A stretch of DNA of 64,000 nucleotides from a candidate division Kazan bacterium RIFCSPHIGHO2_01_FULL_44_14 (GTDB taxonomy: Bacteria > Patescibacteriota > Kazan-3B-28). The notes under the pieces were generated by a model. The model was not told the DNA's origin. It ran no database searches and saw only the letters and a program-made list of their open reading frames with translations. The stretch spans positions 375,200-439,199 of the forward strand of contig METB01000001.1 in the NCBI GenBank assembly GCA_001771185.1. The letters are read 5' to 3'. A program made the position numbers and the translations under genes. Positions 44,660 through 59,879 of the stretch are shown one piece after another. The first letter of the stretch is position 1; every line of letters starts with the position of its first letter.

Positions 44660-46450
44660 TTACTCCCCGGTTAGATTACGCAGTTCGGCTAATTGGGCAG
44701 GGTCAGAAGTGACGATTTTATCTTCCACATAACTAGCCACAACTTTAATGGCGGCATGGTTAGTGCCGGCAAAGAAAAGTCCTTCACCAACTTCGGACTC
44801 GAGCAGTAGGAACTTTTCACCTTGGGTCAAATTGAAGGTCTCGGCGACGACATCAATCGAAGCCGGGGACTGGCGGAAGAGCAGTTGAAGAGACGAGTTG
44901 GCTACCACTGCCTTACCATATTTGGAGCCCAAAAAGTCCTCTACATCCTGGGTAATAGTGGTGAGCCCGAGATAATATTTGCGAGCTCGTTTGGCGATAC
45001 TATATAAGAATTTAGCCGAGTCCTCGTATTGCATTAAAATCCAGGCCTCGTCGATGATGAGCAGACGCTTTTTAATATTGAAGCGGATTTTATTCCAAAT
45101 ATAATTCAACACCACATACATAGCGATGGGGCGAAGGGCGTCCTCCAAATCCCGAATATTGAAGACAACTAAACCGGTGTCTAAATCAAAATTGGTTGGT
45201 TTGTTGAAGATGCCAGCGAAAGTCCCGCGGGTATATTTGCTAAGTCGTTGAGACAAACTTTCGGCTCCCTGCATGTTGTCCAAAACATTTTGCAAGTCCT
45301 CCATCGTCGGCATTGGGTTTTTGTGGGTGGCGGTGTCGTTGGTGATATCTTTGAGGGCGTAGGTTTCATGTAAGGCCTTGTCCATCAAAGCATCTTCTTC
45401 GGGAGTCAAAGTCCCGACCAGCAAATTCATCAGGCCAAGCAAAGTGACGATGGCGGAGCGAAGGACTTTTTCGCCGTCAGCATCGACGCCCAGGTCGGGC
45501 AGGTCAAATGGATTAATCCGTTTGTCGCTGTTGAGCGAGATAGAAATAAATGAACCGCCAATGGCATTGGCCAGGGTCTCGTATTCATTCTCTGGATCGA
45601 TGACAATCGTGTCAGTTCCGAACATCGCACTGCGCAAAACCTCGAGTTTGACCGCATAGGACTTACCTCCACCGGACTTGGCGAAGACAGCCATGTTGGC
45701 ATTTTCTAAATCGAACCGGTCAAATAAAATCAGCGAATTGTTGTGCCGGTTGATACCATACAGAACACCTTTGCCGGTAGTCAGGTCAACCGAAGTGAAG
45801 GGGAAAGTGGTAGCAAGTGAGGAACTGGTCATGTTGCGGACAATATCTAACTCATCTAAGCCCAGTGGCAAAGAAGAATTAAAGCCCTGCTCCATTTGAA
45901 GTAAAGCATGCTTGGTGTAAACTAATTGGCCGCCCAGCGTGGTTTCAATGTGTTGGGTAATCGATTCCAACTCTTCGGGGGTCTTGGCGTAGATGGTGAA
46001 ATACAAACCATAATGGAAGAACCGTTCCATCCCGCGTTGCAGACGGTCACGGAGTTCCTCGGCATCTTGGTAGGCGACTTCCAGTTCGGGGTCGCGAACA
46101 GCGCCCTTTTCTTGGTTGATTCGAAGCGAGGACTCCATTTCGGCCACTTTCCGGCGGAGCGTATTCATAATGGCAGTACTGTCAATCGGGTAGATGTGCA
46201 TCGAAATGTCCAAATCAACATCATAGTTAATGACTGGGTTGAGCCAGTTGGTTTCAATATATTGAGGGTAGGTGAGCACAAACAGGGTTCGGACAAACCG
46301 GCCATTGAGCTCAATGGAATCATTTTTGATTTCCATAGAAGCCGGGGCAACCAAATCACGAATTGAAACTAGGCCAGCTTCAAATTGTTCGACGGCTTTG
46401 CGGGCGTCAGCTTCTTTTTGGGGCTTAGGTTTTCTTTTGAATAGAGCCAT
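44660..46450 (-). CDS. VirB4/TrbE-family type IV secretion ATPase
   Basis: P-loop FAKSGGGKSYAVK and the VirB4-typical Walker B LLIIDEAW. About 600 aa, comparable to the Gram-positive/CPR VirB4 class. Confidence 0.7.
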   Translation of the reverse strand: MALFKRKPKPQKEADARKAVEQFEAGLVSIRDLVAPASMEIKNDSIELNGRFVRTLFVLTYPQYIETNWLNPVINYDVDLDISMHIYPIDSTAIMNTLRRKVAEMESSLRINQEKGAVRDPELEVAYQDAEELRDRLQRGMERFFHYGLYFTIYAKTPEELESITQHIETTLGGQLVYTKHALLQMEQGFNSSLPLGLDELDIVRNMTSSSLATTFPFTSVDLTTGKGVLYGINRHNNSLILFDRFDLENANMAVFAKSGGGKSYAVKLEVLRSAMFGTDTIVIDPENEYETLANAIGGSFISISLNSDKRINPFDLPDLGVDADGEKVLRSAIVTLLGLMNLLVGTLTPEEDALMDKALHETYALKDITNDTATHKNPMPTMEDLQNVLDNMQGAESLSQRLSKYTRGTFAGIFNKPTNFDLDTGLVVFNIRDLEDALRPIAMYVVLNYIWNKIRFNIKKRLLIIDEAWILMQYEDSAKFLYSIAKRARKYYLGLTTITQDVEDFLGSKYGKAVVANSSLQLLFRQSPASIDVVAETFNLTQGEKFLLLESEVGEGLFFAGTNHAAIKVVASYVEDKIVTSDPAQLAELRNLTGE

Positions 46451-46540: not shown

Positions 46541-47233
46541 TTATTGTCCTGGGTTGGTATCCTTAATATGCTGGATGACTGAAACATCGACATTACTGAC
46601 CGAAAATAGTTTTTGTCTCCGGGCGGTATCAGTATTGTAGGTAGTATAGAACAGCTCAATCAATTCTTGAGTGTTGAGTTGGACATTATGCAACCCCAGC
46701 CCAGCCAGACCAGACGAGGCCAAGGAAGTCCGTTCCATCAACTTGGTTTTAACTTCCTCAAATCGGCCACCCAATGAAACCGGCCCACTCTTTTTACCAA
46801 AAAGTCCAGCCAGAAATCCGCCGGTAGGGAGTTCGACGCCGGTATCGTAGGGGATAACTAGATAGAAGGTTTTACTCATGATGTTAGCGACACCGATGAG
46901 TTCGCGGACGAAGTTGGTGTACTCGGTAGTTTGAGTTCGAAGCAGGTCATTGGTTTGTTGACGGCTAAGGGTGTCGAGTTGGGCCAAGTAATTGTCCAAA
47001 TCCAACATTCGGGACTGGACAACGATTTGGATTGGGAATCCTAGGCCGTTGAGAAAGGCCTGGTACTGCTGCATCATCGCTTCTTGTTCGTCCCTGGATT
47101 TGAGGTTGAAGTTGATGGCGTTGACCATCAATACAGTCCGAAATCCGCCGGTCTTTAAAATCACTATCCCATCGCGGACTTCCTTGATAGGTAGGTACTT
47201 TTGAGTACTGTTGGGCTGCTTTGATTTAGCCAT
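46541..47233 (-). CDS. VirB4 N-terminal-domain paralog (no ATPase domain)
   Basis: LPIKEVRDGIVILKTGGFRTVLMVNAINF... parallels the VirB4 N-terminus SIRDLVAPASMEIKNDSIELNGRFVRTLFVLTYP... The same leader element precedes it. Confidence 0.4.
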   Translation of the reverse strand: MAKSKQPNSTQKYLPIKEVRDGIVILKTGGFRTVLMVNAINFNLKSRDEQEAMMQQYQAFLNGLGFPIQIVVQSRMLDLDNYLAQLDTLSRQQTNDLLRTQTTEYTNFVRELIGVANIMSKTFYLVIPYDTGVELPTGGFLAGLFGKKSGPVSLGGRFEEVKTKLMERTSLASSGLAGLGLHNVQLNTQELIELFYTTYNTDTARRQKLFSVSNVDVSVIQHIKDTNPGQ

Positions 47234-47322: not shown

Positions 47323-47871
47323 TTATTCGTTTTCTGCTAAGACATCTTCTACATCCAGACCGGCTTCGTTAACGAGAGAGGGATTCTCATTTAAATTATT
47401 TACTTGAGTTGTCACCGCCTCCTGATCGTCCGGCTTAATTGTACCACCCGCATCTAAGACCCGAGACAGCTTTTCGAGCTGACTTTGCAATTCTTTGCCT
47501 TGTTTGCGTTCTTGAAGTTCACTTTTAGTGTCTTTGATATCGGTGGCTGACACTTTAATTGTTTCTACCAACTCGCGGGGTTCTTTATGCCACACTCGTT
47601 GTTTATTGGCCAACCAAAACTTGAACAAGTTGACGATAAAGACACCAAAGGGCTGTCCGTTAACTTTGCTAAAAGCAAAGGCAATGCTCAAAGACCCGGC
47701 TACTAAACTGATTAGGACAAACTCGATGCCATAGAGATACTGCATCGCGTAATACTGGTAAGCGATGAAGACGATTGAGGCGCCAGCCAAGACATAAAGG
47801 AATTGCTTTAGGGTCAATGGGCCGACGAGCCGGTCTTCACGGGTAACGTCTTGTGGGATTTTAGCAGGCAT
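47323..47871 (-). CDS. Small two-TM membrane protein, possible VirB3/PrgI-like T4SS component
   Basis: Two adjacent hydrophobic helices followed by a charged tail. Called mainly on position between the VirB6-like and VirB4-like genes; homology was not verified. Confidence 0.3.
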   Translation of the reverse strand: MPAKIPQDVTREDRLVGPLTLKQFLYVLAGASIVFIAYQYYAMQYLYGIEFVLISLVAGSLSIAFAFSKVNGQPFGVFIVNLFKFWLANKQRVWHKEPRELVETIKVSATDIKDTKSELQERKQGKELQSQLEKLSRVLDAGGTIKPDDQEAVTTQVNNLNENPSLVNEAGLDVEDVLAENE

Positions 47872-47880: not shown

Positions 47881-50607
47881 TTAAGATTTAGGTTTGTTAG
47901 TGATAATACTATCCAAGGTTTTTAGGACTCGGTTGACATCCAATTCCCTGCCATCTAGTTCTAAACTGTTTAAGTCGAAATGGTCTAGCGCTTGAGTGAT
48001 GTTTCCATTTTGAGTAGCATTAAGAACCGAGTTGCGAGATTCCTGGGCGGCCTGGATGGGGTCGGCAGTGTTTTGGAGTGCGGTCAAGATTTCCTGACGA
48101 AGTTTAGGGATTTCATTCTCAAGGTAATCTTTCGGAGAATCCCCGGTTGGAGACGAGGTCTTGTTCAGAGAGGCCGTCACATTGGAAGTGTATTGTGACT
48201 GGTTATTGATTTGAGCATTGATAGCCGACTGTTGCTGATTAACGCTTTGTTCGGCCGCAGTCCGGTTGGCCTCTTCGGTGGCTTTTTGCTGTTCAAGCCC
48301 AGAAATCTGTTGGTTATTTTCGATGATGGTTTTAATACTAGTTAAAGCATTGGGACTGGTGGCCCCAGCGGCAAAGATTCGGGCGTTGTTGATGTCTTCG
48401 GGTTTAATACCGGATGATAATACCGATGCCAGTTTTGCCGAAGTTGTTTCGTCAACCCCGATACCTTTGAGATAGTCATTGGTTTTTATCTCTCGAGCCG
48501 CTTGGTTCGTAGTTGTTGACGCGATGTTATCAAGTTCCTTCTTTTGGTCTGAAGTTAAATTGTTGACAGTGGCTTTGTCGGTATTGGAGGACAGTTCGGA
48601 GAGATTATCGCGGAGACCGGGATTATCAACCAATGCTTTTAGGGTTTGAGGGTCTAATTGTTTGCCGGCCTCTACGGCACGGTTAGCGGCTTCTTGCTCG
48701 GCAGTGCTAAGACCCTTTAACCCGTCAGCGGCTGTTTCGGTTTCTTGGCTTAGTGCCTGAATGGCCGTATTTAATTTATTCAGGCCGTCCTCTAGTGACT
48801 TTAGCGTGGCAGAACTTTTGGCCAGGTCGCCATAGTTGGCCCCGCCTGCACCAGAAACGCCAGCGGTTTCGTCGTCTGCTTCACCGGATTTGGGTGGGGC
48901 ATATTTGCCTTTGCTCCAGCGATATCCGGCTTGTTTTAATAAATCATCTCCTGTCCGGCTTTCCATACTTCCATCTGGTTGCAGTGTTTTAAATGGTTGG
49001 TCTAATAGATTATTGTGATCTTTTTCGATTTGTATCCGTTCCTCTTTATCACGGGTCGCATTGCGGACACGGCGCATAACCGCTTGGGCAATCTTAAGTT
49101 TGCGGGCGTTCAAAAGGGTAGGGCTAGCACCGTATGCTTCGTAGGCCTCCTTAAGTTCGTCGGCAGCGCCCTTACCAGTTGGTTCGGTTTTCATTTTGAC
49201 ATCAACCATGTCGGCCAAGAAGGAGTTGTCGCGGTCAGCCGCTTGGTCACGCTTAGAGACCAGACCTGGGTTTCTGTTTTCAAATTCTAATTTCAGGGCG
49301 GTCTTCTCGGCTGAGCTTAAGTCATCCATCGAACTTGCACCAAACCGAGGTAATTGGCTTTCGATATATTTGTTTTCCTTGTTGTCGTAATCGGCTAGAG
49401 TGCGCTCATCTCCGGGCTGGAGTTTATCCATTACACCCTTGCGAGTAGCCAATTCACCGACTTTCTTGGCCGACTTCACGCGGGTATCAAGCGCGGCCAT
49501 ATTGACATCCATTTGCCGGAGCAGTCCGCCGGCCTTTGAACCCTTAAATCCTTCCATACCCAATTGCCAGTATTTACCGGCAGTAGCAGAGATAGCTTTA
49601 CTGGAGGCCTGGAACGGTTTGTTGGCCAGGTCAGTCATAAACTTGGTGGCTGCGCTGATTGGGACTTTTAGCGTTCCTGGTGTGTTGGCGGCGGCTAGCA
49701 TTAAAGCAATTACGACGATGTAGTACATAAAGGTCGCAGCACTGGCGCCACTGTTTAATCCAGCATTGCTACCGGCAGGGCTAGTAAATGAATCGATGAT
49801 TAATTGTCCGATCGAGTTGGTGTCACTGGGCTTTAACATACTGGCTATGCCTAAAAGCAAGTAGGCGAGTGGCAAAACCAGAATCCAGCGAATTAAATCG
49901 CTCCACCAAGTTTGAGCCATACCCTGCAAATCCTTGTGGGGGAGCAAGCTCAAAGCAAACATGATTGGGCCAAAGATGGTCAAAATAATTAGACGGACTG
50001 CTCGCTCAATCAAAACAAACGCCAGTCGGAAGAAAACATAGGTGCTAATGGCGTAGACGGCCAACATCATGAGAGAGAGGCCGATGTATTTTACGAGGTC
50101 GACGTCATAACCTCCAACGACTTTGGGCGAGAAGAGCAGGTTAATGTCATTAACGAAGGTTTCTATCTGAGATGGCTCAAATCCAAGCATAGTGTGAGCG
50201 GTGTTTTTAAGAGCGTCGCCCACTTCAATCAATACCAATACGATTTGATAACTTAAGTTGGCTAATGCTACTGAAGTAATCAGCCCAGTAATGGCTTTTT
50301 TAAAGTTGTATCCACCCGAGCGGGTGATAATCATGATGGCGAAAGCCACCAATGCCAAGAAGAAAAGGACATTAGCTGCCATTGTCATAACTCCCCAGGC
50401 CTGGAGTACTGCCGGGCTACCAAGAATTAGATTCTGTCCCTTAAGGACCACTTCATTGATGATCCATAGCAAAAAACTATTAATCATCGCCAAAAATGCT
50501 TCAATGCCGATAATTAACCCCCCAACGATGACCTTGAGTACTGGTTGGGCAATAATACCTACGCCAAGTCCGAGAGCTGCCAGAAGAGTGATTGTAATCG
50601 GATCCAT
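47881..50607 (-). CDS. VirB6/TrbL-like polytopic membrane protein with ~550-aa hydrophilic coiled-coil/low-complexity C-terminal extension
   Basis: At least six TM helices in the first ~350 aa, then an Ala/Gln/Asn/Ser/Thr-rich coiled region. Start set at MDPITITLL. Confidence 0.45.
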   Translation of the reverse strand: MDPITITLLAALGLGVGIIAQPVLKVIVGGLIIGIEAFLAMINSFLLWIINEVVLKGQNLILGSPAVLQAWGVMTMAANVLFFLALVAFAIMIITRSGGYNFKKAITGLITSVALANLSYQIVLVLIEVGDALKNTAHTMLGFEPSQIETFVNDINLLFSPKVVGGYDVDLVKYIGLSLMMLAVYAISTYVFFRLAFVLIERAVRLIILTIFGPIMFALSLLPHKDLQGMAQTWWSDLIRWILVLPLAYLLLGIASMLKPSDTNSIGQLIIDSFTSPAGSNAGLNSGASAATFMYYIVVIALMLAAANTPGTLKVPISAATKFMTDLANKPFQASSKAISATAGKYWQLGMEGFKGSKAGGLLRQMDVNMAALDTRVKSAKKVGELATRKGVMDKLQPGDERTLADYDNKENKYIESQLPRFGASSMDDLSSAEKTALKLEFENRNPGLVSKRDQAADRDNSFLADMVDVKMKTEPTGKGAADELKEAYEAYGASPTLLNARKLKIAQAVMRRVRNATRDKEERIQIEKDHNNLLDQPFKTLQPDGSMESRTGDDLLKQAGYRWSKGKYAPPKSGEADDETAGVSGAGGANYGDLAKSSATLKSLEDGLNKLNTAIQALSQETETAADGLKGLSTAEQEAANRAVEAGKQLDPQTLKALVDNPGLRDNLSELSSNTDKATVNNLTSDQKKELDNIASTTTNQAAREIKTNDYLKGIGVDETTSAKLASVLSSGIKPEDINNARIFAAGATSPNALTSIKTIIENNQQISGLEQQKATEEANRTAAEQSVNQQQSAINAQINNQSQYTSNVTASLNKTSSPTGDSPKDYLENEIPKLRQEILTALQNTADPIQAAQESRNSVLNATQNGNITQALDHFDLNSLELDGRELDVNRVLKTLDSIITNKPKS

Positions 50608-50836
50608 AGTTTTGGTGTTTATTTTTTTGCTGGTTGAGTTGAGCCAAATAAGATTAGCCACCCAACAAGTAATTATTTAATTATAGCAAAAAATAGGGAA
50701 TTAGTCAAGAGGGAACTGGGCGGGGCTAAAATGGCCCAGAAACCGTTATATCAGATACGAAGTTTAGTCAAAGACCGGGAAATCAGGCATAATAGTAGTA
50801 GTTTACAAATCGGTAAAAAGAGGATGTAATCTTGCG

Positions 50837-52282
50837 ATGATAGAGGAGCCGCAAAATCAGTCCCAGAGCCCAAAATCGCCCCAGGATGAATTAGACGAAT
50901 TGTTGCGCCAAAGTAGAGCGACTCGGCCAATGTCTGGTATTAAATTGCCGGACAACAAACCAACAGGGGATCGGAATTGGTTGGGGGTAGGTATTGTCGG
51001 GCTGGCAGTTATTTTGGTTGCCGGGACGGGGTATTTGTTATTGAGCGGAATCAAATTTGGGACTGGAGAGGTAATTTTGGGGCTTAATCAGAGTCCGGTG
51101 GCTCTGTCGATAGACGATAAAAGTTACGGTCAGGTCAGCAACGGCGACATGATTCGCTTAAAAGTTGGTCAACATACATTGGTTTTGACCAGAGAGGGCT
51201 TTTTGAATTTGACCGAGATGGTGGAAGTCAGCCGGAGTCAGCAGTTGGCGATTAATTTGGAACTACTGCCAATCCCAGAAATCCAAACTGTGATTGACCA
51301 CCCGGTTAGTTTTGTGCGATTGAATCAAGACGGCTCCGAGATGGCTTATCTTGATTCCCAAGATAAGAGTTTTAAAACCATCAAACTGGATGATTCAAGT
51401 ATTGCTAACTTGTTCAAAGGCAGTTTCTCTGGGGTGACTGATGTGATGTGGTCACGAGTTGGTCAATCGGCGTTGGTGAAAATAACCGGGCGACCGACTT
51501 TGTCGAATATGTTGGATAATCGAGCGGTTCAGGGTCGGTATATCCCGCTCGGGACTCCGGGCGGTCGGCCCGATCAGGCCCCGGCCAAATCGAACGGAGT
51601 AAGCACTTGGTTATTTGACGATGACCGCAAACCGGCTAGCGGTTGGCAGCCGATTTTATTAAGCGATAGTGTTCGGGAGGCAGTATTTAGTGCGGACGGG
51701 AGTTCAATTATTTATATTTACGAAACCGCCGATGGTGAATACTCGCTAGTGCGGGCTTGGCCAGACGGGTTGGAATGGGAACGGCTGATTGTGGAGATGC
51801 CTCGACTGGAAACCCCGCAATTTACTTGGGGACCAGACGATAGATATGTATTAGTTCAGACCGCGGGTAAATTAATGCTCTTGGATTTAATAGCCAAAAC
51901 ATTGTCTGAACCGTTCCCGGATTATGCGGCGGGAAGCCAATTTGCTTTTTCAACTGATGGGACAAGAGTGGCGTATTTAGCGAAGTCAGAGGATGGCACT
52001 ATCCGGTTGAAGACCTATGACTTTTTGTCTGGGGTGGCGGTGGTAGTGGAAGGTCTGGCTGTGAATGGTGAAACCAGTATGGTTTGGACGACTGGGAATT
52101 CGCTAATGGTGGCGACTGGCGGACAGTCGTTTGAACTGGTTAATGTAGAACGAGGGACTCGGATGACAATTCCTCTGGCCGGGAACACGACCAGTTCTCA
52201 AATAGAGCGGATGGAATACAGCAAAACCGCAAAAGTTTTGATGTTGGTAACCGATGCGGGGGTATCGATGATGAAAGTGTGA
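50837..52282 (+). CDS. Hypothetical membrane-anchored protein with beta-propeller-like repeats
   Basis: N-terminal TM helix. Repeated ...DGS.I.Y... / FSTDGTRVAYL... segments reminiscent of TolB/PD40 blades. Divergently oriented to the T4SS-like operon. Confidence 0.4.
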   Translation: MIEEPQNQSQSPKSPQDELDELLRQSRATRPMSGIKLPDNKPTGDRNWLGVGIVGLAVILVAGTGYLLLSGIKFGTGEVILGLNQSPVALSIDDKSYGQVSNGDMIRLKVGQHTLVLTREGFLNLTEMVEVSRSQQLAINLELLPIPEIQTVIDHPVSFVRLNQDGSEMAYLDSQDKSFKTIKLDDSSIANLFKGSFSGVTDVMWSRVGQSALVKITGRPTLSNMLDNRAVQGRYIPLGTPGGRPDQAPAKSNGVSTWLFDDDRKPASGWQPILLSDSVREAVFSADGSSIIYIYETADGEYSLVRAWPDGLEWERLIVEMPRLETPQFTWGPDDRYVLVQTAGKLMLLDLIAKTLSEPFPDYAAGSQFAFSTDGTRVAYLAKSEDGTIRLKTYDFLSGVAVVVEGLAVNGETSMVWTTGNSLMVATGGQSFELVNVERGTRMTIPLAGNTTSSQIERMEYSKTAKVLMLVTDAGVSMMKV

Positions 52283-52353
52283 GCCCCGGCAGGGGTCTGA
52301 TGTGAAAGTAATCTTTGGAATTTGATTATTGATTATGGGGGATTAAGGTTGTT

Positions 52354-54351
52354 ATGGCAGATGATAATGACACCAAGAACCAGAGACGGTTAAAAGTAAA
52401 AAAGATTCGTGAACGGATTGAACGATTGGTTCAACAGTCGCGAATTAATTTGGATTTTTATGCAAGTGTGGCTGCCCAACTAGAACGGGCGAATAAACAA
52501 ATTGATGATGGTCAGCGTCAGGATGAATTTAATCAAGAGGATTTGGCGGATCAGCGAGTCAAGAATCAAGCGGGTGACGAGGACGAAGAAGAAGAGAATG
52601 AAGAGCAGCCCGAGCAACCAGAGCCCGAGCAACCAGAGCAGCAAGAGCAGCAAGAACGGCAAGAGCCAGAACAGCCCGAAGACCAACCATCTGCACGGAA
52701 AGACCAATTAGAAAAACTACGTCAGGCCAGAGAGACGTATCAGAAAGTGCAGAAAGCGGCCGAGACAGCCAAAAAAATGGCCGAAGCGGCTAAGTCAGCC
52801 AAGACGGTGGCGACGGTCGGAGCATTTTTAGCGGAAACCTGGTGGATATGGGTAATCTTATTGGTGTTACTATTACTAGTTGCTTTAGCTTATATGATTT
52901 TTGGTGGGGCGGGGAATAAGGTGCTAGATATGGCTGGTGGTTCTATCCCAATTGCGATGGACTATCAGAATAAAGAACATCAAAAACTGGTAGCGGATGT
53001 AGAGGGGCTAGTAAAAGATGGGGCATTATTAATGAACGAGAATTCGGCTAAGGACTTGTCTTGGCAATCAGATAAAAATGGTAAACCAATTCATGCGTTG
53101 GACTGGCGAACGATGGAAACCTTAAGTTATTTGGCCGGTAAATATAAAATTGGAGTAAAGTTTTTGAAGAGCAATGGACCAGATATGACACGGCGTATGC
53201 CAGTGGCCAAGGGGGAAGAAAATAGCGAGCCGATTGACGCACCGTCGGCGTATAGCTTCGGCCAAGGAATTGCGATTACAAGTATTGGGGTAACTAGTTT
53301 AGAATTAACTGAAGCGATGGGGTTGCCCCAACCTGTTCCAGTACAGGTGAATTGGCAGAAGCAAGTGGTAGAAAAAGCGCTAAGGCCGATTTATGAGCAA
53401 CTGCAGGTAGATGCTAGAGCATTATTTAATGCAACGGTGCAGGCGAATGCTCAAGCTGACACCGATGAAAAGGGGTTGGAGGTGTTGGCCAGAGCACATG
53501 AACAAGCAGTGACGGACTCGGCCAAGAATCCTCAGGCCAAAATTAAAGATAATTATATGATAGCTAAAGAAGCGCTTGATAATCTGATTATTAATCTTGA
53601 ACGAATGCGTGAGGTTGGGAAGTGTTGGGAGGAAAAACCATGGTTGGACCCGCGGGCTTGTCGATTTAGTACTAAGGCCAGTGGATATTTAGGCGGGGCA
53701 AGCGGCCTTTTTGAAAAATCTGGTACCGCGTTTATCGATGGTTGGGGAGAACAAACGGATAGTGGGCCAATCCATCAGGGGCTGTGGGCCACTTTTAGGG
53801 CAATGCAAGTGGCGAACATGTTGGGATGGAATGGGAACGAAGAAGAGATTGATTTGTGGAAGGCCTACGAGGCCAGACAAAATATTCGTAAGCTTGCGTT
53901 GGATATTTTACGGATGCCAGTGGCATTGGCTGGTGAAGGGCAGGATTTTAATGCGGACTTGGTGGCTAAACAATTAATCATTTATAGTCCAGAAGATGAC
54001 TTAGACAATGGGTTGCCTGATTTTGATGTCTACCCTAGAGGGACAATCGCAGTCGATGAGGGGGGAGTTGGTTATGACTCAACTGGGCACGATAATGTGA
54101 TTGATGTGCGGGATAATCATTTTATGTCACTACCAATTGATGGCGGTATATTTAGTAAGCTTGGTACTGTTTTTATCTATAAGACCGACAGCGCTGGGCA
54201 AATTGCCAAAGAGATACTTGAATGGGCAGCGGCCAGTTTTACCCTTGGAGGGAGTAAGATGATGGATTTGTGGGATGGGGGAGGAATTGAGAAACCAGGT
54301 GAAGAAAGGGTTAAAGTTTCTTATAGAAGTTTTGTCCATATTGGGTTTTGA
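52354..54351 (+). CDS. Hypothetical protein: N-terminal coiled-coil, acidic (E/Q/P) QPEQPE repeat tract, TM helix, ~450-aa C-terminal domain
   Basis: EEEENEEQPEQPEPEQPEQQEQQERQEPEQPEDQ low-complexity tract and TM segment WWIWVILLVLLLLVALAYMIF. Confidence 0.4.
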   Translation: MADDNDTKNQRRLKVKKIRERIERLVQQSRINLDFYASVAAQLERANKQIDDGQRQDEFNQEDLADQRVKNQAGDEDEEEENEEQPEQPEPEQPEQQEQQERQEPEQPEDQPSARKDQLEKLRQARETYQKVQKAAETAKKMAEAAKSAKTVATVGAFLAETWWIWVILLVLLLLVALAYMIFGGAGNKVLDMAGGSIPIAMDYQNKEHQKLVADVEGLVKDGALLMNENSAKDLSWQSDKNGKPIHALDWRTMETLSYLAGKYKIGVKFLKSNGPDMTRRMPVAKGEENSEPIDAPSAYSFGQGIAITSIGVTSLELTEAMGLPQPVPVQVNWQKQVVEKALRPIYEQLQVDARALFNATVQANAQADTDEKGLEVLARAHEQAVTDSAKNPQAKIKDNYMIAKEALDNLIINLERMREVGKCWEEKPWLDPRACRFSTKASGYLGGASGLFEKSGTAFIDGWGEQTDSGPIHQGLWATFRAMQVANMLGWNGNEEEIDLWKAYEARQNIRKLALDILRMPVALAGEGQDFNADLVAKQLIIYSPEDDLDNGLPDFDVYPRGTIAVDEGGVGYDSTGHDNVIDVRDNHFMSLPIDGGIFSKLGTVFIYKTDSAGQIAKEILEWAAASFTLGGSKMMDLWDGGGIEKPGEERVKVSYRSFVHIGF

Positions 54352-54464
54352 TGTAGTGTAGGGGTTGATAAACGGGTTTTTGGTGGGGTAAACAAGCAAC
54401 ACTGAGCGTCAATAGCCGAGCGAGCTATGTCGAGCTCGTGCGTAGCGCGAAGTTGTTGCGCAGT

Positions 54465-54554
54465 GGAGGCGTGGCCGAGTGGTTTATGGCGCTAGTCTCG
54501 AAAACTGGTTGGGGAGTAATCCCCTCGGAGGTTCAAATCCTCCCGCCTCCGCCA
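54465..54554 (+). tRNA. tRNA-Ser (anticodon CGA), type II with long variable arm, CCA encoded
   Basis: Acceptor stem GGAGGCG/CGCCTCC. Anticodon stem CTAGT/ACTGG with loop CTCGAAA. T-arm GGTTCAAATCC. Confidence 0.85.
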
Positions 54555-54609
54555 TACTTCGCCAAGGCTTCGAGTGGCCTGTGGCCAGATATGTAATAAT
54601 GGGGTAGTT

Positions 54610-55095
54610 ATGGCAGACCCAAAGCAAGAAGTTGGCACTCTCCGATATGAATGGACTGCGCTTGAATTCCCTCGGGTGGAGCGGACTAGAGTTTGGTATT
54701 TGGTGGCTGGGTTAGTTGGGCTTGGATTGTTGGCGTATACCATATATACCAGGCAATGGGCGGGAACAGCTGTCGTGCTAATGATTGGGGTGGTAGTTTA
54801 TCTGATGGGGAGAGTTGTCCCAAGAACTTTTGTTCATCGGTTAACAAGCCGTGGGGTAGAAGTGGGAGATAAATTTTATCCGTACACAGAGTTGAGAGCG
54901 TTTTGGGTGATTAATACCTCTAACAGTCGGACATTAAATCTGATATCAGCTAAGAAATTTAGTTTGCTTTTAACTTTACAATTAGAAGGGGCTGATGTAG
55001 AAAAGGTAAGAGAAGTTTTGTTGGAGTTTTTGCCAGAAGAGCCCGGGCGAGGCGAAGATGTGATTGACCGGGTTGGCAGGTTCTTTCGGTTTTAA
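54610..55095 (+). CDS. Hypothetical membrane protein (two TM helices, bPH/DUF304-like)
   Basis: Start set at MADPKQ, preceded by a GGGG Shine-Dalgarno-like stretch. Two adjacent TM helices. Confidence 0.4.
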   Translation: MADPKQEVGTLRYEWTALEFPRVERTRVWYLVAGLVGLGLLAYTIYTRQWAGTAVVLMIGVVVYLMGRVVPRTFVHRLTSRGVEVGDKFYPYTELRAFWVINTSNSRTLNLISAKKFSLLLTLQLEGADVEKVREVLLEFLPEEPGRGEDVIDRVGRFFRF

Positions 55096-55174
55096 TTATT
55101 ATGCGCCCGCCTGCAACGCTATGCGTAGCATTGCGGGCTGGCCCGTAGCTCTGTGGGCTGGCAGGGGGTTAGGA

Positions 55175-55493: not shown

Positions 55494-55521
55494 CGTCAAT
55501 TTGGTGGATTGAAAATAAAAT

Positions 55522-55736: not shown

Positions 55737-55743
55737 GAATTTT

Positions 55744-56205: not shown

Positions 56206-56246
56206 GGTACAATAGAGGCGTTAGGCAGTTTAATATTTTTGATAAA

Positions 56247-56383
56247 CGGGGTCCCCGAAATGCTCTAGTCCCGACGAATGGAGGAACGAGGATTTTGGGG
56301 AGAGGAGAAATGACGAGACCCAAAAGCACCCCGCCATCTGTAAACAATGGCGGGATAGTGTAAAGTTGAGTCCATTTGGACGA
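56247..56383 (+). ncRNA. Conserved structured element upstream of tRNA-Ser(TGA), copy 2
   Basis: See copy 1. Same 5' block GGGGNCCCCGAAATG.TCTAGT.C.GACG.ATGGAGGAACGAGGATTTTGGGGAGAGGA and same 3' block GTCCATT.GGACGAGG. Confidence 0.4.
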
Positions 56384-56473
56384 GGAGGCGTGGCCGAGCG
56401 GTTTATGGCGCCAGTCTTGAAAACTGGTTGGGGAGCAATCCTCTCACAGGTTCGAATCCTGTCGCCTCCGCCA
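56384..56473 (+). tRNA. tRNA-Ser (anticodon TGA), type II, CCA encoded
   Basis: Acceptor stem GGAGGCG. Anticodon stem CCAGT/ACTGG with loop CTTGAAA. T-arm GGTTCGAATCC. Confidence 0.85.
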
Positions 56474-56492: not shown

Positions 56493-56523
56493 AAAAAGAA
56501 GCCCCAGAGGGGCTTCTTTTGAT
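56493..56523. terminator. Bidirectional rho-independent terminator
   Basis: GAAGCCCC agag GGGCTTC hairpin flanked by A-tract and T-tract (AAAAAAGAAGCCCCAGAGGGGCTTCTTTTGA). Confidence 0.6.
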
Positions 56524-56541: not shown

Positions 56542-56865
56542 TTATTGAATCAATCCAATAACTACATTAACGATGGCATATGACAGACCGATAATGACCA
56601 CACCCACAAGGGCGTTGGTAATCATGGTTTTGCCTGATTCAGCACCTTTGGCGCCACCGGTGATATAGGTTATACCACCAAACACCAAATATCCAACAGC
56701 GATGATGCCGGCAATGCTAAACACCCAAGTTATAAGTGCACCAATGGTGGCTTGGATGGAGGTGCCTTCTGTTATATCGGTAACATTACCACCTTGGGCG
56801 AATGCTGGTAGTGCAAGCCACAAAGAAGTGACGATACCAGTACCGATTGATAATACCTTTTTCAT
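56542..56865 (-). CDS. VirB2/TrbC-like pilin candidate (signal peptide plus two hydrophobic helices)
   Basis: Signal peptide MKKVLSIGTGIVTSLWLALPAFA|QGG. Two glycine-rich hydrophobic segments separated by a short GGAKGAESGK loop. About 107 aa. Paralogous to the next gene; both end LIQ. Confidence 0.4.
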   Translation of the reverse strand: MKKVLSIGTGIVTSLWLALPAFAQGGNVTDITEGTSIQATIGALITWVFSIAGIIAVGYLVFGGITYITGGAKGAESGKTMITNALVGVVIIGLSYAIVNVVIGLIQ

Positions 56866-56904
56866 ATTACGACCCTTTAATTATTAATATGAACCGAAGT
56901 ACCT

Positions 56905-57225
56905 TTATTGTATCAAACTGATAGCCAAATTAATAATAGCGGTGGCAAGCCCAACAATAATCCCACCGACAATTGTGGCGGTAATGGTTTTCTTCCCGGC
57001 TTCGGCTTGACCAGTAATATATTGGATGCCGCCAAAAACCAGCATTAATACCATAATTAATCCGGCAATCCCCAGGATGTAAACTTGGAGTCCTTCAACG
57101 ATTGAAATAACTTTGTTAATCAGACCGGCAAGTTTGCTCATGCCGATTCCGGCTCCAACAGAAAGACCGGCGTTATTTGGTTGGGCATAGGCCGTCAGTA
57201 CCCATTTGGTAATCCAATTTATCAT
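56905..57225 (-). CDS. VirB2/TrbC-like pilin candidate (paralog)
   Basis: Same architecture. ...VFGGIQYITGQAEAGKKTI... aligns with ...VFGGITYITGGAKGAESGKTMI... in the neighbour. Confidence 0.4.
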   Translation of the reverse strand: MINWITKWVLTAYAQPNNAGLSVGAGIGMSKLAGLINKVISIVEGLQVYILGIAGLIMVLMLVFGGIQYITGQAEAGKKTITATIVGGIIVGLATAIINLAISLIQ

Positions 57226-58577
57226 TCGAGTTTGTTGATGTCTCTGACGGCTACATCAATGGCAACTTCGGGACTAATTTTGTCTTTAACTACACTATCA
57301 ATCATTCGGCCAAAAATACTTTCGATCTCGGGAGTGTTCTTACGATACCAGGATTTGGCATAGTCAATTTGTTGAGCGACTGGAGCGTAGTAGCGGCGAC
57401 TGGTCATGGTATCTTGAAGTTCTTTGCTGGCCGGGATGTGTCCGGTGGCGCGGAAGAAAGCACTTTGAGAATTGCGCTTGGTCATAAATTTGATAAAGTC
57501 CCAGGCCTCATTGGGATGCTGACTATTCTTAGAGACGGTCTCGCCCCAATAGTTAGCGATGGTGATTGGATTTTGGATTTGGCGTTGAGGCAGGACGGCC
57601 GTTTCGAATCGAAGTTTGGGAGCAAACTGTTGGATTAGCGGAACATGATAAGCGTAACCAAACATCATGGCGGCTTTCCCTTCGATAAAGGCCTGAACAT
57701 CGGAGGGGAAGACCCGACTGCCATCGGCATTTTTGGCATCAGTATAGGTATAGACGGGAGACCCTGGGGTAGCAAATTGAGTGTAGTAACTTAAGGCGTT
57801 TTGACTGGCCATAAAGGGTGGGTTGGTGTCAGGTGCTGGCAGATTAAAAGTCGCGGTGGTATGATCGGCCGAGGTCATTTCGGCACCATATTGCATCATT
57901 AGAGCAGCTAGGATATCAGCGGCTCGGGGGATACCATCATTACCGCCAAGGGTGATGGCGGAACGGGTAATATTGCCCCGGCTATCTTTTTCGGTGAGTT
58001 TGGGAATCAGATCAACTAGGTCCTGAAGCGTCCGTGGCGGTTGTTTGATTTTCTTGGCACTAAAGATGTCGGTGTTATAGAAGAGCATTAGGTCGTCTAT
58101 ATAGTAAGGTACTGCGTAGATGCGATTGTTAGAGATAAAGTCGGTTTGAACGACATCGGGGAAGAGATTTCGGTAATCCTTAACACTCATCAGACCGGCC
58201 GGCATCGGAGCAATCTGATTAATCTGGTAGGGGAGCCAGTCATTATGGAGCATGAACATGTCCGGGCCAGCACCGTCAGCGATTAATTTGATCAGATTCT
58301 GCTGATAGTCGTAAATAGTTTCGCCGGGCTTTAAACTGATTTTCTTTACCTCGATGGTAATGTTCGGGTGTTTACTGGTGTAACTGTTAATAAGTTCGTC
58401 GAGGGCATCGCTCTCATCCCATAGTCGCCAATACTCCAAAGTAATTGGTTCATTGGAAATGACCGGAGGCGCTTCGGTAGTATCACTGCTACCGCCTCTT
58501 TTGCACGACAAAGCAGTCAGGGAGACCCCAATTAAAAGGGCGAGAAAAATCGAGTAGAGACGGTGGCGGTTGGTCAT
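57222..58577 (-). CDS. ABC transporter extracellular solute-binding lipoprotein (family 1, sugar-type)
   Basis: Lipoprotein signal (...LTALSC). About 450-aa periplasmic binding protein fold. Confidence 0.65.
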   Translation of the reverse strand: MTNRHRLYSIFLALLIGVSLTALSCKRGGSSDTTEAPPVISNEPITLEYWRLWDESDALDELINSYTSKHPNITIEVKKISLKPGETIYDYQQNLIKLIADGAGPDMFMLHNDWLPYQINQIAPMPAGLMSVKDYRNLFPDVVQTDFISNNRIYAVPYYIDDLMLFYNTDIFSAKKIKQPPRTLQDLVDLIPKLTEKDSRGNITRSAITLGGNDGIPRAADILAALMMQYGAEMTSADHTTATFNLPAPDTNPPFMASQNALSYYTQFATPGSPVYTYTDAKNADGSRVFPSDVQAFIEGKAAMMFGYAYHVPLIQQFAPKLRFETAVLPQRQIQNPITIANYWGETVSKNSQHPNEAWDFIKFMTKRNSQSAFFRATGHIPASKELQDTMTSRRYYAPVAQQIDYAKSWYRKNTPEIESIFGRMIDSVVKDKISPEVAIDVAVRDINKLE

Positions 58578-59446
58578 TTGCGGTTTGCGAATCGGTTGAT
58601 TAATTGCTGACGAAGTTGAGGTTGGTCGAGGGCGTATTCAATAATGGTAGCGAGGTATGAAGCCGGGTCTCCGGTGGTGAGCCATTTCCCACCAACTACT
58701 TTGCGGGTGACAACCGGAGCGATTTTGATGAGATGTTTGATGGCGTCGGCGGTCCAAAATTCATTGTCTTTGCCGTGCCTAGTTTGTTTCAGAGCCCGAA
58801 AGATATCGGGAGTAAAAAGATAACGGCCAAATGATGCTAAATGAGAAGGGGCTTGTTGCGGTGAGGGCTTTTCGACAATGTCTTCTAGGAAAGGTGTATC
58901 CGACCGCAACTTTACTATGCCATATTTTGATACTTCTTTGCTATCTACTTCTTGTACGCCGATAATGCTACAGTGGTGTTTGCGGTAGGTGTCGATGAGT
59001 TGTTTGGAAAAAGAGATTTTTGATTTAACCAGATCGTCGCCAAAAGCGTAGATGAAGGGCTCGTTGCCAATCAGATCTTGAGCGGTAATCAAGGGGAGAG
59101 CATTGCCATAGCCCTCGATTTGTCGGACATAGACAAACTTGGCCAGTTTACTGATTTGTTTCATTTGCTGAACCAGGGCTTTTTTGCCTTGGGCAAGCAA
59201 CTGATGTTCCAGTTCAAAAGACGGATCAAAGTGATCTTCGACCGATTTCTTTTGCCAGTTAGTGACCAAGATGATTTCTTTGATTCCGGCATCATGCAGT
59301 TCCTCGGCGATGTACTGGACGATTGGTTTGTCGATGATTGGCAGCATTTCTTTGGGACTGGCTTTGGTGATTGGTAGAAACCGAGTGCCAAATCCAGCGA
59401 CAGCGATTACGGCTTTACGGACCGGGGGCAGTTTAGCGGGAGTCAT
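58574..59446 (-). CDS. galU: UTP--glucose-1-phosphate uridylyltransferase
   Basis: VRKAVIAVAGFGTRFLPITKASPKEMLPIIDKP motif. Confidence 0.85.
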   Translation of the reverse strand: MTPAKLPPVRKAVIAVAGFGTRFLPITKASPKEMLPIIDKPIVQYIAEELHDAGIKEIILVTNWQKKSVEDHFDPSFELEHQLLAQGKKALVQQMKQISKLAKFVYVRQIEGYGNALPLITAQDLIGNEPFIYAFGDDLVKSKISFSKQLIDTYRKHHCSIIGVQEVDSKEVSKYGIVKLRSDTPFLEDIVEKPSPQQAPSHLASFGRYLFTPDIFRALKQTRHGKDNEFWTADAIKHLIKIAPVVTRKVVGGKWLTTGDPASYLATIIEYALDQPQLRQQLINRFANRK

Positions 59447-59879
59447 CTTGAATTTGAATTATTTTGGTATGACTAGTGGAAGCCAAAGGCATAATGATAG
59501 TTAAGATTCCATTATTTAGCGATGCTCGAGTGCGGTCTGGATCGATCGGTTTAGGGAGATCAACGGTTCGGCTTAAATTCCCCCAGTGGCATTCTTGGAG
59601 ATAGAAGTGTTCTTTCTCCTCGCTCCTACCTTGCCAACTGTTTTTGTTAATCGTTAATTGATTTGGGGTGATGGTGACACTAATATCGTGGATACCGGCT
59701 CCGGCAATCGGGGACCTAGCAATCAATTTGTTACCGGTTCGCAGTAGATCAACCGGAAGCTCGCTAGCATCGACACTATCAGTTGCCAAATCTTCGGCTT
59801 CAACTTCCTCACCATCACGAAAGGTGATGGTCTTACTCCCGGCCGACTGGTTTTGAGCGAAAAATGTATTGCGCAGCAT
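59433..59879 (-). CDS. Hsp20/alpha-crystallin family small heat-shock protein
   Basis: Alpha-crystallin domain ending SLNNGILTIIMP. About 148 aa. Confidence 0.7.
   Translation of the reverse strand: MLRNTFFAQNQSAGSKTITFRDGEEVEAEDLATDSVDASELPVDLLRTGNKLIARSPIAGAGIHDISVTITPNQLTINKNSWQGRSEEKEHFYLQECHWGNLSRTVDLPKPIDPDRTRASLNNGILTIIMPLASTSHTKIIQIQDDSR

What the first reader, a model, noticed from the sequence alone, without database searches (positions are those of the whole stretch)
56542..57225. Two paralogous VirB2/TrbC-like pilin candidates about 6 kb from the T4SS-like cluster
Both proteins are ~106 aa with a signal peptide followed by two glycine-rich hydrophobic helices joined by a short charged loop. 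Both end in LIQ. This is the architecture of conjugative-pilus/T4SS pilins. Pilins are missing from the main cluster, so these are natural candidates for the pilin or cap of that apparatus. A strong bidirectional terminator separates them from the tRNA block.
Basis: inference. Interest (0 to 1): 0.6.

Follow-up and report, generated by a model that had tools for sequence, protein, structure and literature searches.

The report
Two VirB2-like secretion-system pilin genes
These two small genes in a Kazan-group (Candidate Phyla Radiation) bacterium encode members of the known type IV secretion 'pilin' family of these ultrasmall bacteria, so the call is right but ordinary; the unexpected part is that such pilin genes are very often welded to a sugar-binding lipoprotein gene.

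Summary
Both ORFs exist as described, on the minus strand: 56542-56865 (107 aa) and 56905-57225 (106 aa). They are paralogues (53% identity over 64 aa, E 2e-15). Each passes Pfam's cut-off for PF18895 T4SS_pilin and falls just under it for PF04956 TrbC/VirB2.

AlphaFold gives a confident two-helix hairpin for both. Foldseek was uninformative. The window is 100% identical to a candidate division Kazan bacterium (Patescibacteria).

The pair lies 5.9 kb from a monoderm-type T4SS cluster (VirB4, TrsD-like, PrgI/VirB3, polytopic 926-aa protein) and about 34 kb from dnaA. The layout is conserved in the relatives fetched from three Kazan-lineage species.

VirB2-like pilin arrays in Patescibacteria are already published (Wang 2023; Quinonero-Coronel 2025). 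So this is a new member of a known kind.

One thing I did not find in the literature searched. The pilins are the last genes of an overlapping operon, Hsp20-GalU-SBP-pilinB-pilinA. The sugar-type solute-binding lipoprotein sits directly upstream of a pilin array in 22 of 72 pilin-anchored loci. In the reverse test, 63 of 70 SBP-anchored loci have a pilin ORF within 300 nt downstream. A motif check found essentially no ABC transporter genes nearby.

An actual pilus, the processing of the proteins and the role of the SBP are all untested.

The parts
56542..56865 (-). pilin A (p1), 107 aa. PF18895 T4SS_pilin family, canonical Sec signal peptide (AFA|Q), loop GGAKGAESGK. It has its own AAGGG Shine-Dalgarno-like motif after a 39-nt spacer and is the last gene of the operon.
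56905..57225 (-). pilin B (p2), 106 aa. PF18895 family, 14-residue presequence ending AYA|Q, longer mature N-terminus, loop GQAEAGKK. Its ATG overlaps the SBP stop codon (ATGA).
56494..56520 (.). Bidirectional intrinsic-terminator-like hairpin (12-bp stem, 3-nt loop, A-run and T-run flanks). It closes the pilin operon and separates it from tRNA-Ser(tga).
   Evidence: z -4.3 and -3.5
57222..58577 (-). Sugar-type ABC solute-binding-fold lipoprotein (SBP_bac_1/8), with a putative lipoprotein signal (...LTALSC) whose Cys is conserved in the family. It is translationally coupled to pilin B. This subfamily is almost always followed by a pilin array.
58574..59446 (-). GalU-like UTP-glucose-1-phosphate uridylyltransferase (NTP_transferase). 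Its stop overlaps the SBP start. It is often conserved upstream of the SBP in other lineages.
59433..59879 (-). Hsp20 small heat-shock protein, the first gene of the overlapping five-gene operon.
44660..46450 (-). VirB4-family ATPase of the monoderm type (NCBIfam CD1110 family, 396 bits against a cut-off of 325).
46541..47233 (-). TrsD/TraC-like protein, resembling the N-terminal part of VirB4.
47323..47871 (-). PrgI family (VirB3-like) membrane protein.
47881..50661 (-). 926-aa polytopic membrane protein with 7 hydrophobic stretches in its N-terminal third and a large hydrophilic remainder. By position and architecture it resembles an extended VirB6, but no family match was found.
   Evidence: synteny
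50837..55095 (+). Three syntenic genes of unknown function (481 aa with a PEGA domain, 665 aa, 173 aa), each with hydrophobic segments. They lie between the T4SS cluster and the pilin operon and are conserved in Kazan relatives.

Best explanation
Identity. p1 and p2 are two anciently duplicated members of the patescibacterial T4SS_pilin family (PF18895). This family is a sister of the TrbC/VirB2 pilins.

Most likely mechanism (all steps inferred):
1. Each protein is inserted into the cytoplasmic membrane and its presequence is cut at AxA|Q by signal peptidase I.
2. It then sits as a two-helix hairpin, with the short basic loop facing the cytoplasm and both ends outside.
3. This membrane pool is used by the nearby monoderm-type T4SS (VirB4, TrsD-like, PrgI/VirB3, polytopic VirB6-like protein), either as a pilus-like fibre or as the distal conduit of the machine that contacts a host cell.
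4. p1 (own ribosome-binding site, canonical signal peptide, the generic sequence type) is the likelier major subunit. p2 (translationally coupled to the upstream gene, divergent N-terminus) is the likelier minor or specialised one.

Operon. The pilins are co-transcribed with a sugar-type solute-binding lipoprotein, which probably works with the pilins at the cell surface.

Shown here: family membership, paralogy, hairpin fold, operon structure, synteny with the T4SS genes, purifying selection, and the SBP-pilin gene linkage.

Inferred: cleavage, topology, filament formation, dependence on VirB4, the major/minor roles, and any role of the SBP.
For: - Family: Pfam PF18895 above cut-off for both, TrbC at E about 1e-5. 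Family-wide, 89/90 match PF18895 and 51/90 match TrbC. Orthologue P0007 and a Berkelbacteria pilin pass the TrbC cut-off.
- Monoderm relatives: 85/90 members also match the Mycoplasma ICE 'Mbov_0395 pilin-like conjugal transfer protein' model at E <= 0.01, best 7e-14.
- Fold: AF2 hairpins have pLDDT above 90 over both helices.
- Conserved residues: G64, G88 and K79 after the loop, plus the AxA|Q site.
- Real genes: dN/dS about 0.1 against the GWA1_50_15-type orthologues, with dS saturated.
- Organism: Kazan-group CPR bacterium.
- Neighbouring T4SS genes.
- Synteny: the order of pilin operon, tRNA/tadA block, three unknown genes and T4SS cluster is conserved in Kazan-lineage genomes whose pilins are 44-70% identical to p1.
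- Other CPR lineages: pilin arrays lie directly beside PrgI-TrsD-VirB4. VirB4 is within 10 kb in 28/72 loci and PrgI in 30/72.
- Literature: PF18895 pilins SEML1_0014-0019 are essential for epibiotic growth of Southlakia ML1 (PMC10633639). VirB2-like pilins occur in 1,948 VirB4-positive Patescibacteria assemblies, and 441 arrays of 2-11 genes were counted (PMC12102498).
- SBP linkage.
Against: - Foldseek of both models against the PDB returned no VirB2, TraA or TrbC hit. It returned only generic helical hairpins at E above 2.
- A PDB sequence-profile search found no pilin.
- hhalign of the family against A. tumefaciens VirB2 was in register but weak (E 0.0025, probability 12%).
- p1 and p2 themselves miss the TrbC gathering score by 2-3 bits. 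Bona fide VirB2 does not hit PF18895.
- p2's presequence is unusually short.
- No VirB5-like gene was recognised among the neighbours scanned. Monoderm T4SSs are generally pilus-less, and no pilus has been seen in any patescibacterium (PMC12857230).
- Many family members are fused poly-pilins, for example six hairpins in one 552-aa chain. That is hard to reconcile with a classical one-subunit helical filament.
- The Kazan-lineage synteny extends to unrelated flanking genes, so it partly reflects general genome collinearity.
Confidence: 0.8

Rival explanations
1. The proteins belong to the T4SS but never form an extended pilus. They stay in or just above the membrane as a short channel or stalk lining, as VirB2 homologues are thought to do in pilus-less systems such as Ptl and ComB.
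For: - Monoderm-type machinery, with no VirB5, VirB7, VirB9 or VirB10 recognised among the neighbouring genes scanned.
- Poly-pilin fusions of 2-16 hairpins are frequent in the family.
- The review PMC12857230 notes that VirB2 is required even in T4SSs that make no pili.
Against: - Arrays of diverging paralogues are more typical of surface-exposed, host-facing proteins (PMC12102498).
- Nothing in the sequence separates this reading from a filament.
Confidence: 0.3
2. The hairpin proteins and the upstream SBP form a T4SS-independent surface module, for example small membrane subunits of an SBP-dependent uptake or adhesion device. Under this reading the 'pilin' name is misleading here.
For: - The SBP is immediately upstream of pilin arrays in 22/72 pilin-anchored loci and in 63/70 SBP-anchored loci.
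- VirB4 is within 10 kb in only 3 of the 23 SBP-positive loci.
- A few family members hit DctQ/TctB-type small transporter subunits weakly.
- Poly-pilin fusions look like polytopic permeases.
Against: - The same family sits directly next to PrgI-TrsD-VirB4 in many other lineages.
- In L015 and L055 the SBP, the pilins and VirB4 are all contiguous.
- There is no large permease subunit, and no ABC ATPase or EAA-motif permease, nearby.
- The SBP is of the ABC (MalE-like) type, not DctP or TctC.
- The DctQ/TctB hits involve only 1-2 of 90 members.
Confidence: 0.1
3. These are generic small hydrophobic membrane proteins (holin-like, or of unknown role) whose resemblance to pilins comes from composition alone.
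For: - Foldseek retrieves only generic hairpins such as the ATP-synthase c subunit and DgkA.
- Hydrophobic low-complexity sequences can inflate HMM scores.
Against: - Both pass a curated Pfam threshold.
- Specific non-hydrophobic positions are conserved: GG-x-Y-I-T-G, K79 and AxA|Q.
- About 50,000 50%-identity cluster representatives match the family profile.
- Gene linkage to T4SS genes recurs.
- Homologues are essential in Southlakia ML1.
Confidence: 0.03

Closest known systems
Patescibacterial VirB2-like pilin arrays (Pfam PF18895), e.g. Southlakia epibionticum ML1 SEML1_0014-0019 and the arrays of Quinonero-Coronel et al. 2025
   Same: - Same Pfam family and same size, with tandem divergent paralogues.
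- Same monoderm-type T4SS partners (VirB4, TrsD-like, PrgI, large polytopic protein).
- An Hsp20 gene is next to the array in ML1 too.
- Location near dnaA/oriC, as that paper reports for T4SS genes.
   Different: - Only two genes, a minimal array.
- Separated from the T4SS cluster by 5.9 kb that holds three unknown genes, tadA and four tRNAs.
- Fused into an overlapping operon with Hsp20, GalU and an SBP lipoprotein. That link is absent in ML1 and not mentioned in either paper.
TrbC/VirB2 pilins of diderm T4SSs (Pfam PF04956; A. tumefaciens VirB2, PDB 8cue/8exh)
   Same: - About 100-120 aa propilin.
- Presequence ending AxA|Q; in my reading of the 8cue sequence, VirB2 has AAA|QSAGGG.
- Two hydrophobic helices joined by a short loop carrying a basic residue.
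- Significant but sub-threshold Pfam match (E 1e-5), with the hhalign alignment in register.
   Different: - Misses the TrbC gathering score, and VirB2 does not hit PF18895.
- No Foldseek match.
- The host is a monoderm, with no VirB5/7/9/10 recognised near these genes.
- Maturation (cyclisation, acetylation) is unknown.
Mbov_0395/MMCAP2_0565 pilin-like conjugal transfer protein of Mycoplasma ICEs (NCBIfam NF045849), and the pLS20_p028 family
   Same: - A small two-helix membrane protein of a monoderm conjugation system.
- 85/90 CPR family members match NF045849 (best 7e-14) and 11 match pLS20_p028.
- The window's VirB4 and TrsD-like proteins also hit the Mycoplasma ICE VirB4 model.
   Different: - p1 scores 17 bits against a cut-off of 40, and p2 has no hit.
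- Those proteins sit on conjugative elements with relaxases, whereas this is a chromosomal locus near the origin.
MalE-like carbohydrate solute-binding proteins of ABC importers (SBP_bac_1/SBP_bac_8), for the operon partner
   Same: - Pfam matches above cut-off.
- The best solved relatives are sugar binders: 4r9f MBP1 at 1e-19 and the trehalose/maltose-binding protein 1eu8.
- Lipoprotein-type N-terminus and conserved aromatic residues.
   Different: - No ABC permease or ATPase motif within 5-10 kb in 80 + 72 loci, apart from 5 stray ATPase-like ORFs.
- Instead it is followed, often with overlapping stop and start codons, by VirB2-like pilin genes.

Membership tests
Pfam PF18895 T4SS_pilin | Whole-protein score at or above Pfam's gathering threshold (26.6 bits) | tested here: met
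   p1 scores 35.3 bits (E 1.2e-8) and p2 29.8 bits (E 6.2e-7).
Pfam PF18895 T4SS_pilin | About 100-130 aa protein with an N-terminal presequence and a two-helix hydrophobic hairpin | tested here: met
   Hydropathy. AF2 helices 37-69/71-106 in p1 and 29-70/74-105 in p2, with pLDDT above 90.
Pfam PF18895 T4SS_pilin | Occurrence in Patescibacteria, typically as tandem paralogues | tested here: met
   100% identity to a Kazan bacterium protein. 63/72 related loci carry 2 or more pilin ORFs.
TrbC/VirB2 pilins (Pfam PF04956) | Score at or above the gathering threshold (27.9 bits) | tested here: not met
   26.0 and 25.0 bits, E about 1e-5. Orthologue P0007 (33.7) and a Berkelbacteria pilin (36.3) do pass, and 51/90 family members match at E <= 1e-3. 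I therefore treat TrbC/VirB2 as a related family, not the family of record.
TrbC/VirB2 pilins (Pfam PF04956) | Structural match to solved conjugative pilins (VirB2, TraA) | tested here: inconclusive
   Foldseek against the PDB gave nothing below E = 2 for either model, and no pilin among the hits. The fold is too simple for the method. hhalign against VirB2 gave E 0.0025, probability 12%.
TrbC/VirB2 pilins (Pfam PF04956) | Signal peptide removed by signal peptidase I at an AxA site | tested here: inconclusive
   The AxA|Q motif is conserved in both orthogroups. p1 is canonical; p2 has only a 14-residue presequence. Cleavage itself cannot be tested here.
TrbC/VirB2 pilins (Pfam PF04956) | Genetic linkage to VirB4/VirB3/VirB6-type genes | tested here: met
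   5.9 kb, or 8-9 coding genes, from VirB4. Conserved in the Kazan-lineage relatives fetched. VirB4 lies within 10 kb in 28/72 family loci.
TrbC/VirB2 pilins (Pfam PF04956) | Polymerisation with phospholipid into an extracellular pilus; dependence on VirB4 | not testable with these tools
   Needs cryo-EM/cryo-ET, surface proteomics or genetics.
NCBIfam NF045849 Mbov_0395 pilin-like conjugal transfer protein | Score at or above the curated cut-off (40 bits) | tested here: not met
   p1 scores 17.3 bits (E 0.0027) and p2 has no hit. 85/90 family members match at E <= 0.01. This is a relative, not the family.
ABC-importer solute-binding proteins (for the upstream gene) | SBP_bac_1/8 domain above cut-off | tested here: met
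   95.7 and 93.2 bits; sugar-binding relatives in the PDB.
ABC-importer solute-binding proteins (for the upstream gene) | Encoded with cognate ABC permease and ATPase genes | tested here: not met
   Motif scan (LSGGQ plus Walker A; EAA loop). The window has none. The 80 SBP-anchored loci have 1 ATPase-like ORF and 0 permease-like ORFs. This is a crude test of the neighbourhood only.

The most novel reading that the evidence does not exclude
The patescibacterial T4SS 'pilus' may work together with a dedicated, orphan, sugar-type solute-binding lipoprotein.

The SBP-pilin operon is often preceded by GalU and appears in loci labelled Kazan, Berkel-, Doudna-, Andersen-, Parcu- and Peribacteria. 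It would be a conserved module in which the SBP is a pilus-associated receptor. In that role it would either recognise a host surface glycan as an adhesin or tip factor, or capture a host-derived sugar at the end of a T4SS conduit.

This would be the first concrete genetic handle on the published speculation that the T4SS serves uptake from the host. I found no description of this linkage in the literature searched.
Probability: 0.3. Interest if true: 0.7.

Novelty: new member of a known kind. Interest (0 to 1): 0.4.

Why it matters
The pilin call only upgrades two 'hypothetical proteins' of a Kazan genome to a family that is already in Pfam and already published. It does confirm that even a roughly 0.7-Mb genome keeps a minimal two-gene pilin set beside its T4SS and near its origin.

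The wider value is the SBP-pilin operon. Patescibacteria cannot make most of their building blocks, and their T4SS and pilins are essential for growth on a host, yet nobody knows what the machine moves. A conserved, transporter-less sugar-binding lipoprotein co-translated with the pilins gives a testable candidate for what the apparatus binds.

Separately, the hits to Mycoplasma ICE and pLS20 small proteins suggest that pilin-like subunits were already part of monoderm T4SSs, rather than being borrowed from diderms.

Tried and rejected
- Foldseek of both AF2 models against the PDB returned only generic helical hairpins at E above 2 and no pilins. I judged it uninformative rather than negative.
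- A family-profile sequence search against the PDB returned only a spurious MacB hit at E 0.034.
- hhalign against a single VirB2 sequence was in register but weak. I did not build a broad VirB2 alignment, because Pfam's TrbC model already gives that comparison.
- tblastn of p1 against 72,556 plasmids found no match at E <= 1.
- The simple terminator scan missed the hairpin; direct folding recovered it.
- Alignments A2 and A4 were too diverse for the search for related loci. The smaller A1 and A5 worked.
- I tested whether p2 corresponds to a conserved 'first pilin after the SBP' type across CPR. It does not: in arrays of 3 or more, 45 of 48 first-position pilins are closer to p1. p2 is therefore a lineage-specific type.
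- I looked for an upstream alternative start that would lengthen p2's signal peptide and found no canonical start codon.
- LIQ as a functional C-terminal motif is rejected, since it is not conserved in orthologues.
- One Python call was lost to a machine error and was repeated.
- I could not confirm that this exact genome is in the 2025 survey, because the stored supplement is truncated. The class Kazan-3B-28 is included.
Full report
**1.

Two minus-strand ORFs lie at 56542..56865 (p1, 107 aa) and 56905..57225 (p2, 106 aa). Both end in LIQ. They are paralogues: 34 of 64 C-terminal residues are identical, with BLASTP E 2e-15.

Each has two strongly hydrophobic, Gly/Ile-rich stretches joined by a short charged loop, GGAKGAESGK in p1 and GQAEAGKK in p2. 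p1 has a textbook Sec signal peptide (MKK, hydrophobic core, AFA|Q).

p2 has only 14 residues (MINWITKWVLTAYA) before the same conserved AxA|Q site. No canonical start codon lies upstream in frame. Its 'signal peptide' is therefore atypical.

A 12-bp GC-rich hairpin at about 56494-56520 is flanked by A- and T-runs. It folds far better than shuffled sequence on both strands (z -4.3 and -3.5). It separates p1 from tRNA-Ser(tga). The simple terminator scan missed it.

A family HMM searched against every ORF of the window finds only p1 and p2. So no pilin gene was detected in the main T4SS cluster, and the gap to that cluster is 5.9 kb.

**2. Family assignment**

| Model | p1 | p2 | Cut-off |
|---|---|---|---|
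| PF18895 T4SS_pilin | 35.3 bits | 29.8 bits | 26.6 |
| PF04956 TrbC/VirB2 | 26.0 bits (E 1.1e-5) | 25.0 bits (E 2.3e-5) | 27.9 |

Both proteins pass the PF18895 threshold and just miss the TrbC one.

- Of 90 aligned relatives, 89 match PF18895 and 51 match TrbC, with a best E of 2e-11.
- The Kazan-lineage orthologue P0007 (44% identical to p1) and a Berkelbacteria pilin pass the TrbC cut-off.
- Authentic A. tumefaciens VirB2 (sequence taken from PDB 8cue) hits only TrbC. PF18895 is therefore a sister family, not the same family.
- The family is very large. A profile search finds 49,953 50%-identity cluster representatives at E <= 1e-3.
- 85 of 90 members also match NCBIfam NF045849, the 'Mbov_0395 pilin-like conjugal transfer protein' of Mycoplasma ICEs (best 7e-14). 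Eleven match the pLS20_p028 family.

**3. Structure**

AlphaFold2 with 90-92-sequence alignments gives mean pLDDT 81 for p1 and 80 for p2. Both models have two long helices above pLDDT 90: residues 37-69 and 71-106 in p1, and 29-70 and 74-105 in p2.

Foldseek against the PDB found nothing below E = 2 for either model and no conjugative pilin. The hits were generic hairpins such as the ATP-synthase c subunit and DgkA. hhalign of the family against VirB2 is in register but weak (E 0.0025, probability 12%).

I treat the structural test as uninformative for so simple a fold. The case for VirB2 relatedness rests on the sequence profiles.

Conserved positions are G64, G88, the GG-x-Y-I-T-G turn and a nearly invariant Lys (K79) just after the loop. 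This recalls the basic loop residue of VirB2. That last comparison is my own inference, prompted by a paper title listed.

**4. Organism and neighbourhood**

p1 is 100% identical to hypothetical protein A3K24_02190 of candidate division Kazan bacterium RIFCSPHIGHO2_01_FULL_44_14.

The window carries dnaA, dnaN and recF at 22.5-26.3 kb, with a GC-skew minimum at about 20-22 kb. The T4SS cluster is therefore about 22-28 kb from the origin and the pilins about 34 kb from dnaA. This agrees with the origin-proximal placement reported by Quinonero-Coronel et al. 2025.

The T4SS cluster comprises:
- VirB4 (44660-46450), NCBIfam CD1110 family, 396 bits against a cut-off of 325;
- a TrsD/TraC-like protein (46541-47233);
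- PrgI/VirB3 (47323-47871);
- a 926-aa polytopic protein (47881-50661), with no family match but a VirB6-like position and architecture.

The pilins are the last two genes of a five-gene minus-strand unit, Hsp20-GalU-like-SBP-p2-p1. Hsp20/GalU, GalU/SBP and SBP/p2 overlap (the SBP stop and p2 start share ATGA). p1 follows after 39 nt, with an AAGGG motif upstream of its ATG.

**5. Conservation**

The same order recurs in the Kazan-lineage genomes that carry P0005, P0006 and P0007, whose pilins are 70%, 55% and 44% identical to p1. The order is: Hsp20-NTP_transferase-SBP-pilinB-pilinA, then tadA, then genes of about 160, 660-800 and 480-496 aa, then the divergently oriented ~930-977-aa protein, PrgI, TraC-like protein and VirB4. 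The SBP-pilinB 4-nt overlap is also kept.

Flanking housekeeping genes are collinear as well, so part of this is plain synteny.

The two pilins form separate orthogroups. The A type has the loop GGAKGAESG. The B type has a 3-residue-shorter loop and a longer mature N-terminus. So the duplication predates these lineages.

dN/dS against the GWA1_50_15-type orthologues is about 0.10 for p1 and 0.12 for p2, with dS saturated.

**6. Wider picture, and the part I had not expected**

I fetched 72 pilin-anchored loci from species-representative genomes.

| Feature within the locus | Loci (of 72) |
|---|---|
| 2 or more pilin ORFs | 63 |
| 3 or more pilin ORFs | 56 |
| VirB4 within 10 kb | 28 |
| PrgI within 10 kb | 30 |
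| Homologue of the window's SBP | 23 |

In 22 of the 23 SBP-positive loci the SBP gene is immediately upstream, on the same strand, of an array of 2-8 pilin genes. The gap runs from overlapping to 114 nt. The loci are labelled Kazan, Berkel-, Doudna-, Andersen-, Parcu- and Peribacteria.

Reverse test. I fetched 80 metagenome loci anchored on SBP homologues that are 31-85% identical to the window's SBP.
- 63 of 70 evaluable loci have a pilin ORF starting within 300 nt downstream, and 68 of 70 within about 660 nt.
- Collapsed at 70% identity, 44 of 46 evaluable clusters show it.

The SBP is of the sugar-binding MalE-like type (best PDB relative 4r9f MBP1, 1e-19). It has a lipoprotein-type N-terminus with a conserved Cys. 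A motif scan finds essentially no ABC ATPase or EAA-loop permease nearby.

In two loci (L015, L055) the SBP, the pilin array and PrgI-VirB4 are contiguous. That ties the SBP module to the T4SS rather than to an independent transporter.

**7. Literature**

- Wang et al. 2023 (PMC10633639) found the T4SS of Southlakia epibionticum ML1 essential for epibiotic growth. This includes its PF18895 pilins SEML1_0014-0019, which sit next to an Hsp20 gene.
- Quinonero-Coronel et al. 2025 (PMC12102498) used PF04956 and PF18895 on 3,035 genomes, including class Kazan-3B-28. They found VirB2-like pilins in 1,948 VirB4-positive assemblies, near virB4 in 1,135 of them, and 441 arrays of 2-11 genes.
- The pair here lies 8-9 coding genes from virB4, inside their +/-20-CDS window.
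- Neither that paper (no occurrence of solute, SBP, ABC or substrate-binding) nor three further full-text searches mention an SBP-pilin linkage.
- The review PMC12857230 speculates that the T4SS and pilus could be a conduit for uptake from the host.

**8. Mechanism**

Shown here: family membership, hairpin fold, paralogy, operon structure, linkage to T4SS genes, purifying selection and the SBP linkage.

Inferred:
- Membrane insertion and cleavage at AxA|Q.
- A hairpin topology with the basic loop inside and the termini outside.
- Recruitment by the VirB4/VirB3/VirB6-like machine into a fibre or short conduit.
- p1 as the major subunit (own ribosome-binding site, canonical signal, and the generic type that most array members resemble).
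- p2 as a lineage-specific minor subunit.
- The SBP as a surface partner, acting as a glycan receptor or adhesin.

**9. Rivals**

| Reading | Confidence | Main point |
|---|---|---|
| Non-filament channel role within the T4SS | about 0.3 | Overlaps with the main reading |
| T4SS-independent SBP-linked module | about 0.1 | Weakened by the VirB4-adjacent arrays and the contiguous loci |
| Chance resemblance | about 0.03 | Contradicted by curated thresholds and conserved polar positions |

**10. Verdict**

However, the object is a new member of a known, published kind. The SBP-pilin operon is the only element that goes beyond what I found described, and it lifts the score modestly.

Noticed in passing
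window 57222-58577 (SBP) with 56542-57225; loci L010-L081 and L082-L161: A sugar-type solute-binding lipoprotein is hard-wired upstream of VirB2-like pilin arrays across many CPR lineages. It is immediately upstream in 22 of 72 pilin-anchored loci. In the reverse test, 63 of 70 SBP-anchored loci have a pilin ORF within 300 nt downstream. GalU often precedes it, and a motif check found essentially no ABC transporter genes nearby. I did not find this in the literature searched.
   Followed up: yes
P0122 (552 aa), P0128 (348 aa), P0163 (221 aa) and many other hits: Many family members are single polypeptides with 2-16 pilin hairpins in tandem, carrying one N-terminal signal peptide and short linkers. 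P0122 has six PF18895 domains. The three sequences inspected look like genuine fusions rather than stop-codon read-through. Such fusions are hard to reconcile with a classical pilus subunit.
   Followed up: partly
family alignment A2; window 44660-47233: 85 of 90 CPR pilins match the Mycoplasma ICE 'Mbov_0395 pilin-like' model and 11 match pLS20_p028. The window's VirB4 and TrsD-like proteins hit the Mycoplasma ICE VirB4 model. This suggests that monoderm (MPF-FATA) systems already had pilin-like subunits, contrary to the assumption that they lack them.
   Followed up: partly
window 20000-26335: dnaA (22516-23916), dnaN (24079-25212) and recF (25220-26335) lie next to a GC-skew minimum at about 20-22 kb, so the replication origin is inside the window. 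The T4SS cluster and the pilin operon are on the minus strand of the positive-skew arm, meaning they are transcribed head-on to replication.
   Followed up: partly
window 54465-56473: This is a tRNA block with three different tRNA-Ser genes (cga, gct, tga) and tRNA-Arg(acg), interleaved with a TadA-like tRNA adenosine deaminase gene (55744-56205). tRNA-Arg(acg) is, from general knowledge, the usual TadA substrate, and here it sits about 250 nt upstream of the enzyme's gene.
   Followed up: no
window 55064-55426 (+), 120-aa ORF: This ORF corresponds to a gene with a GIY-YIG nuclease domain in near-identical metagenome contigs L008 and L009, but it is not called in L007. It may be a strain-variable homing-endonuclease-like insertion beside tRNA-Arg.
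   Followed up: no
window 42083-44657: A PilB/T2SSE type IV pilus ATPase (42083-43831) and a TSP3-repeat membrane protein (43743-44657) lie directly beside virB4. Type IV pilus and type IV secretion genes are therefore adjacent on the same strand.
   Followed up: no
window 50837-55095: Three genes of unknown function (481 aa with a PEGA domain, 665 aa, 173 aa) sit between the T4SS cluster and the pilin operon. Each has hydrophobic segments, and all are syntenic in Kazan relatives. They could be further T4SS-associated components.
   Followed up: partly
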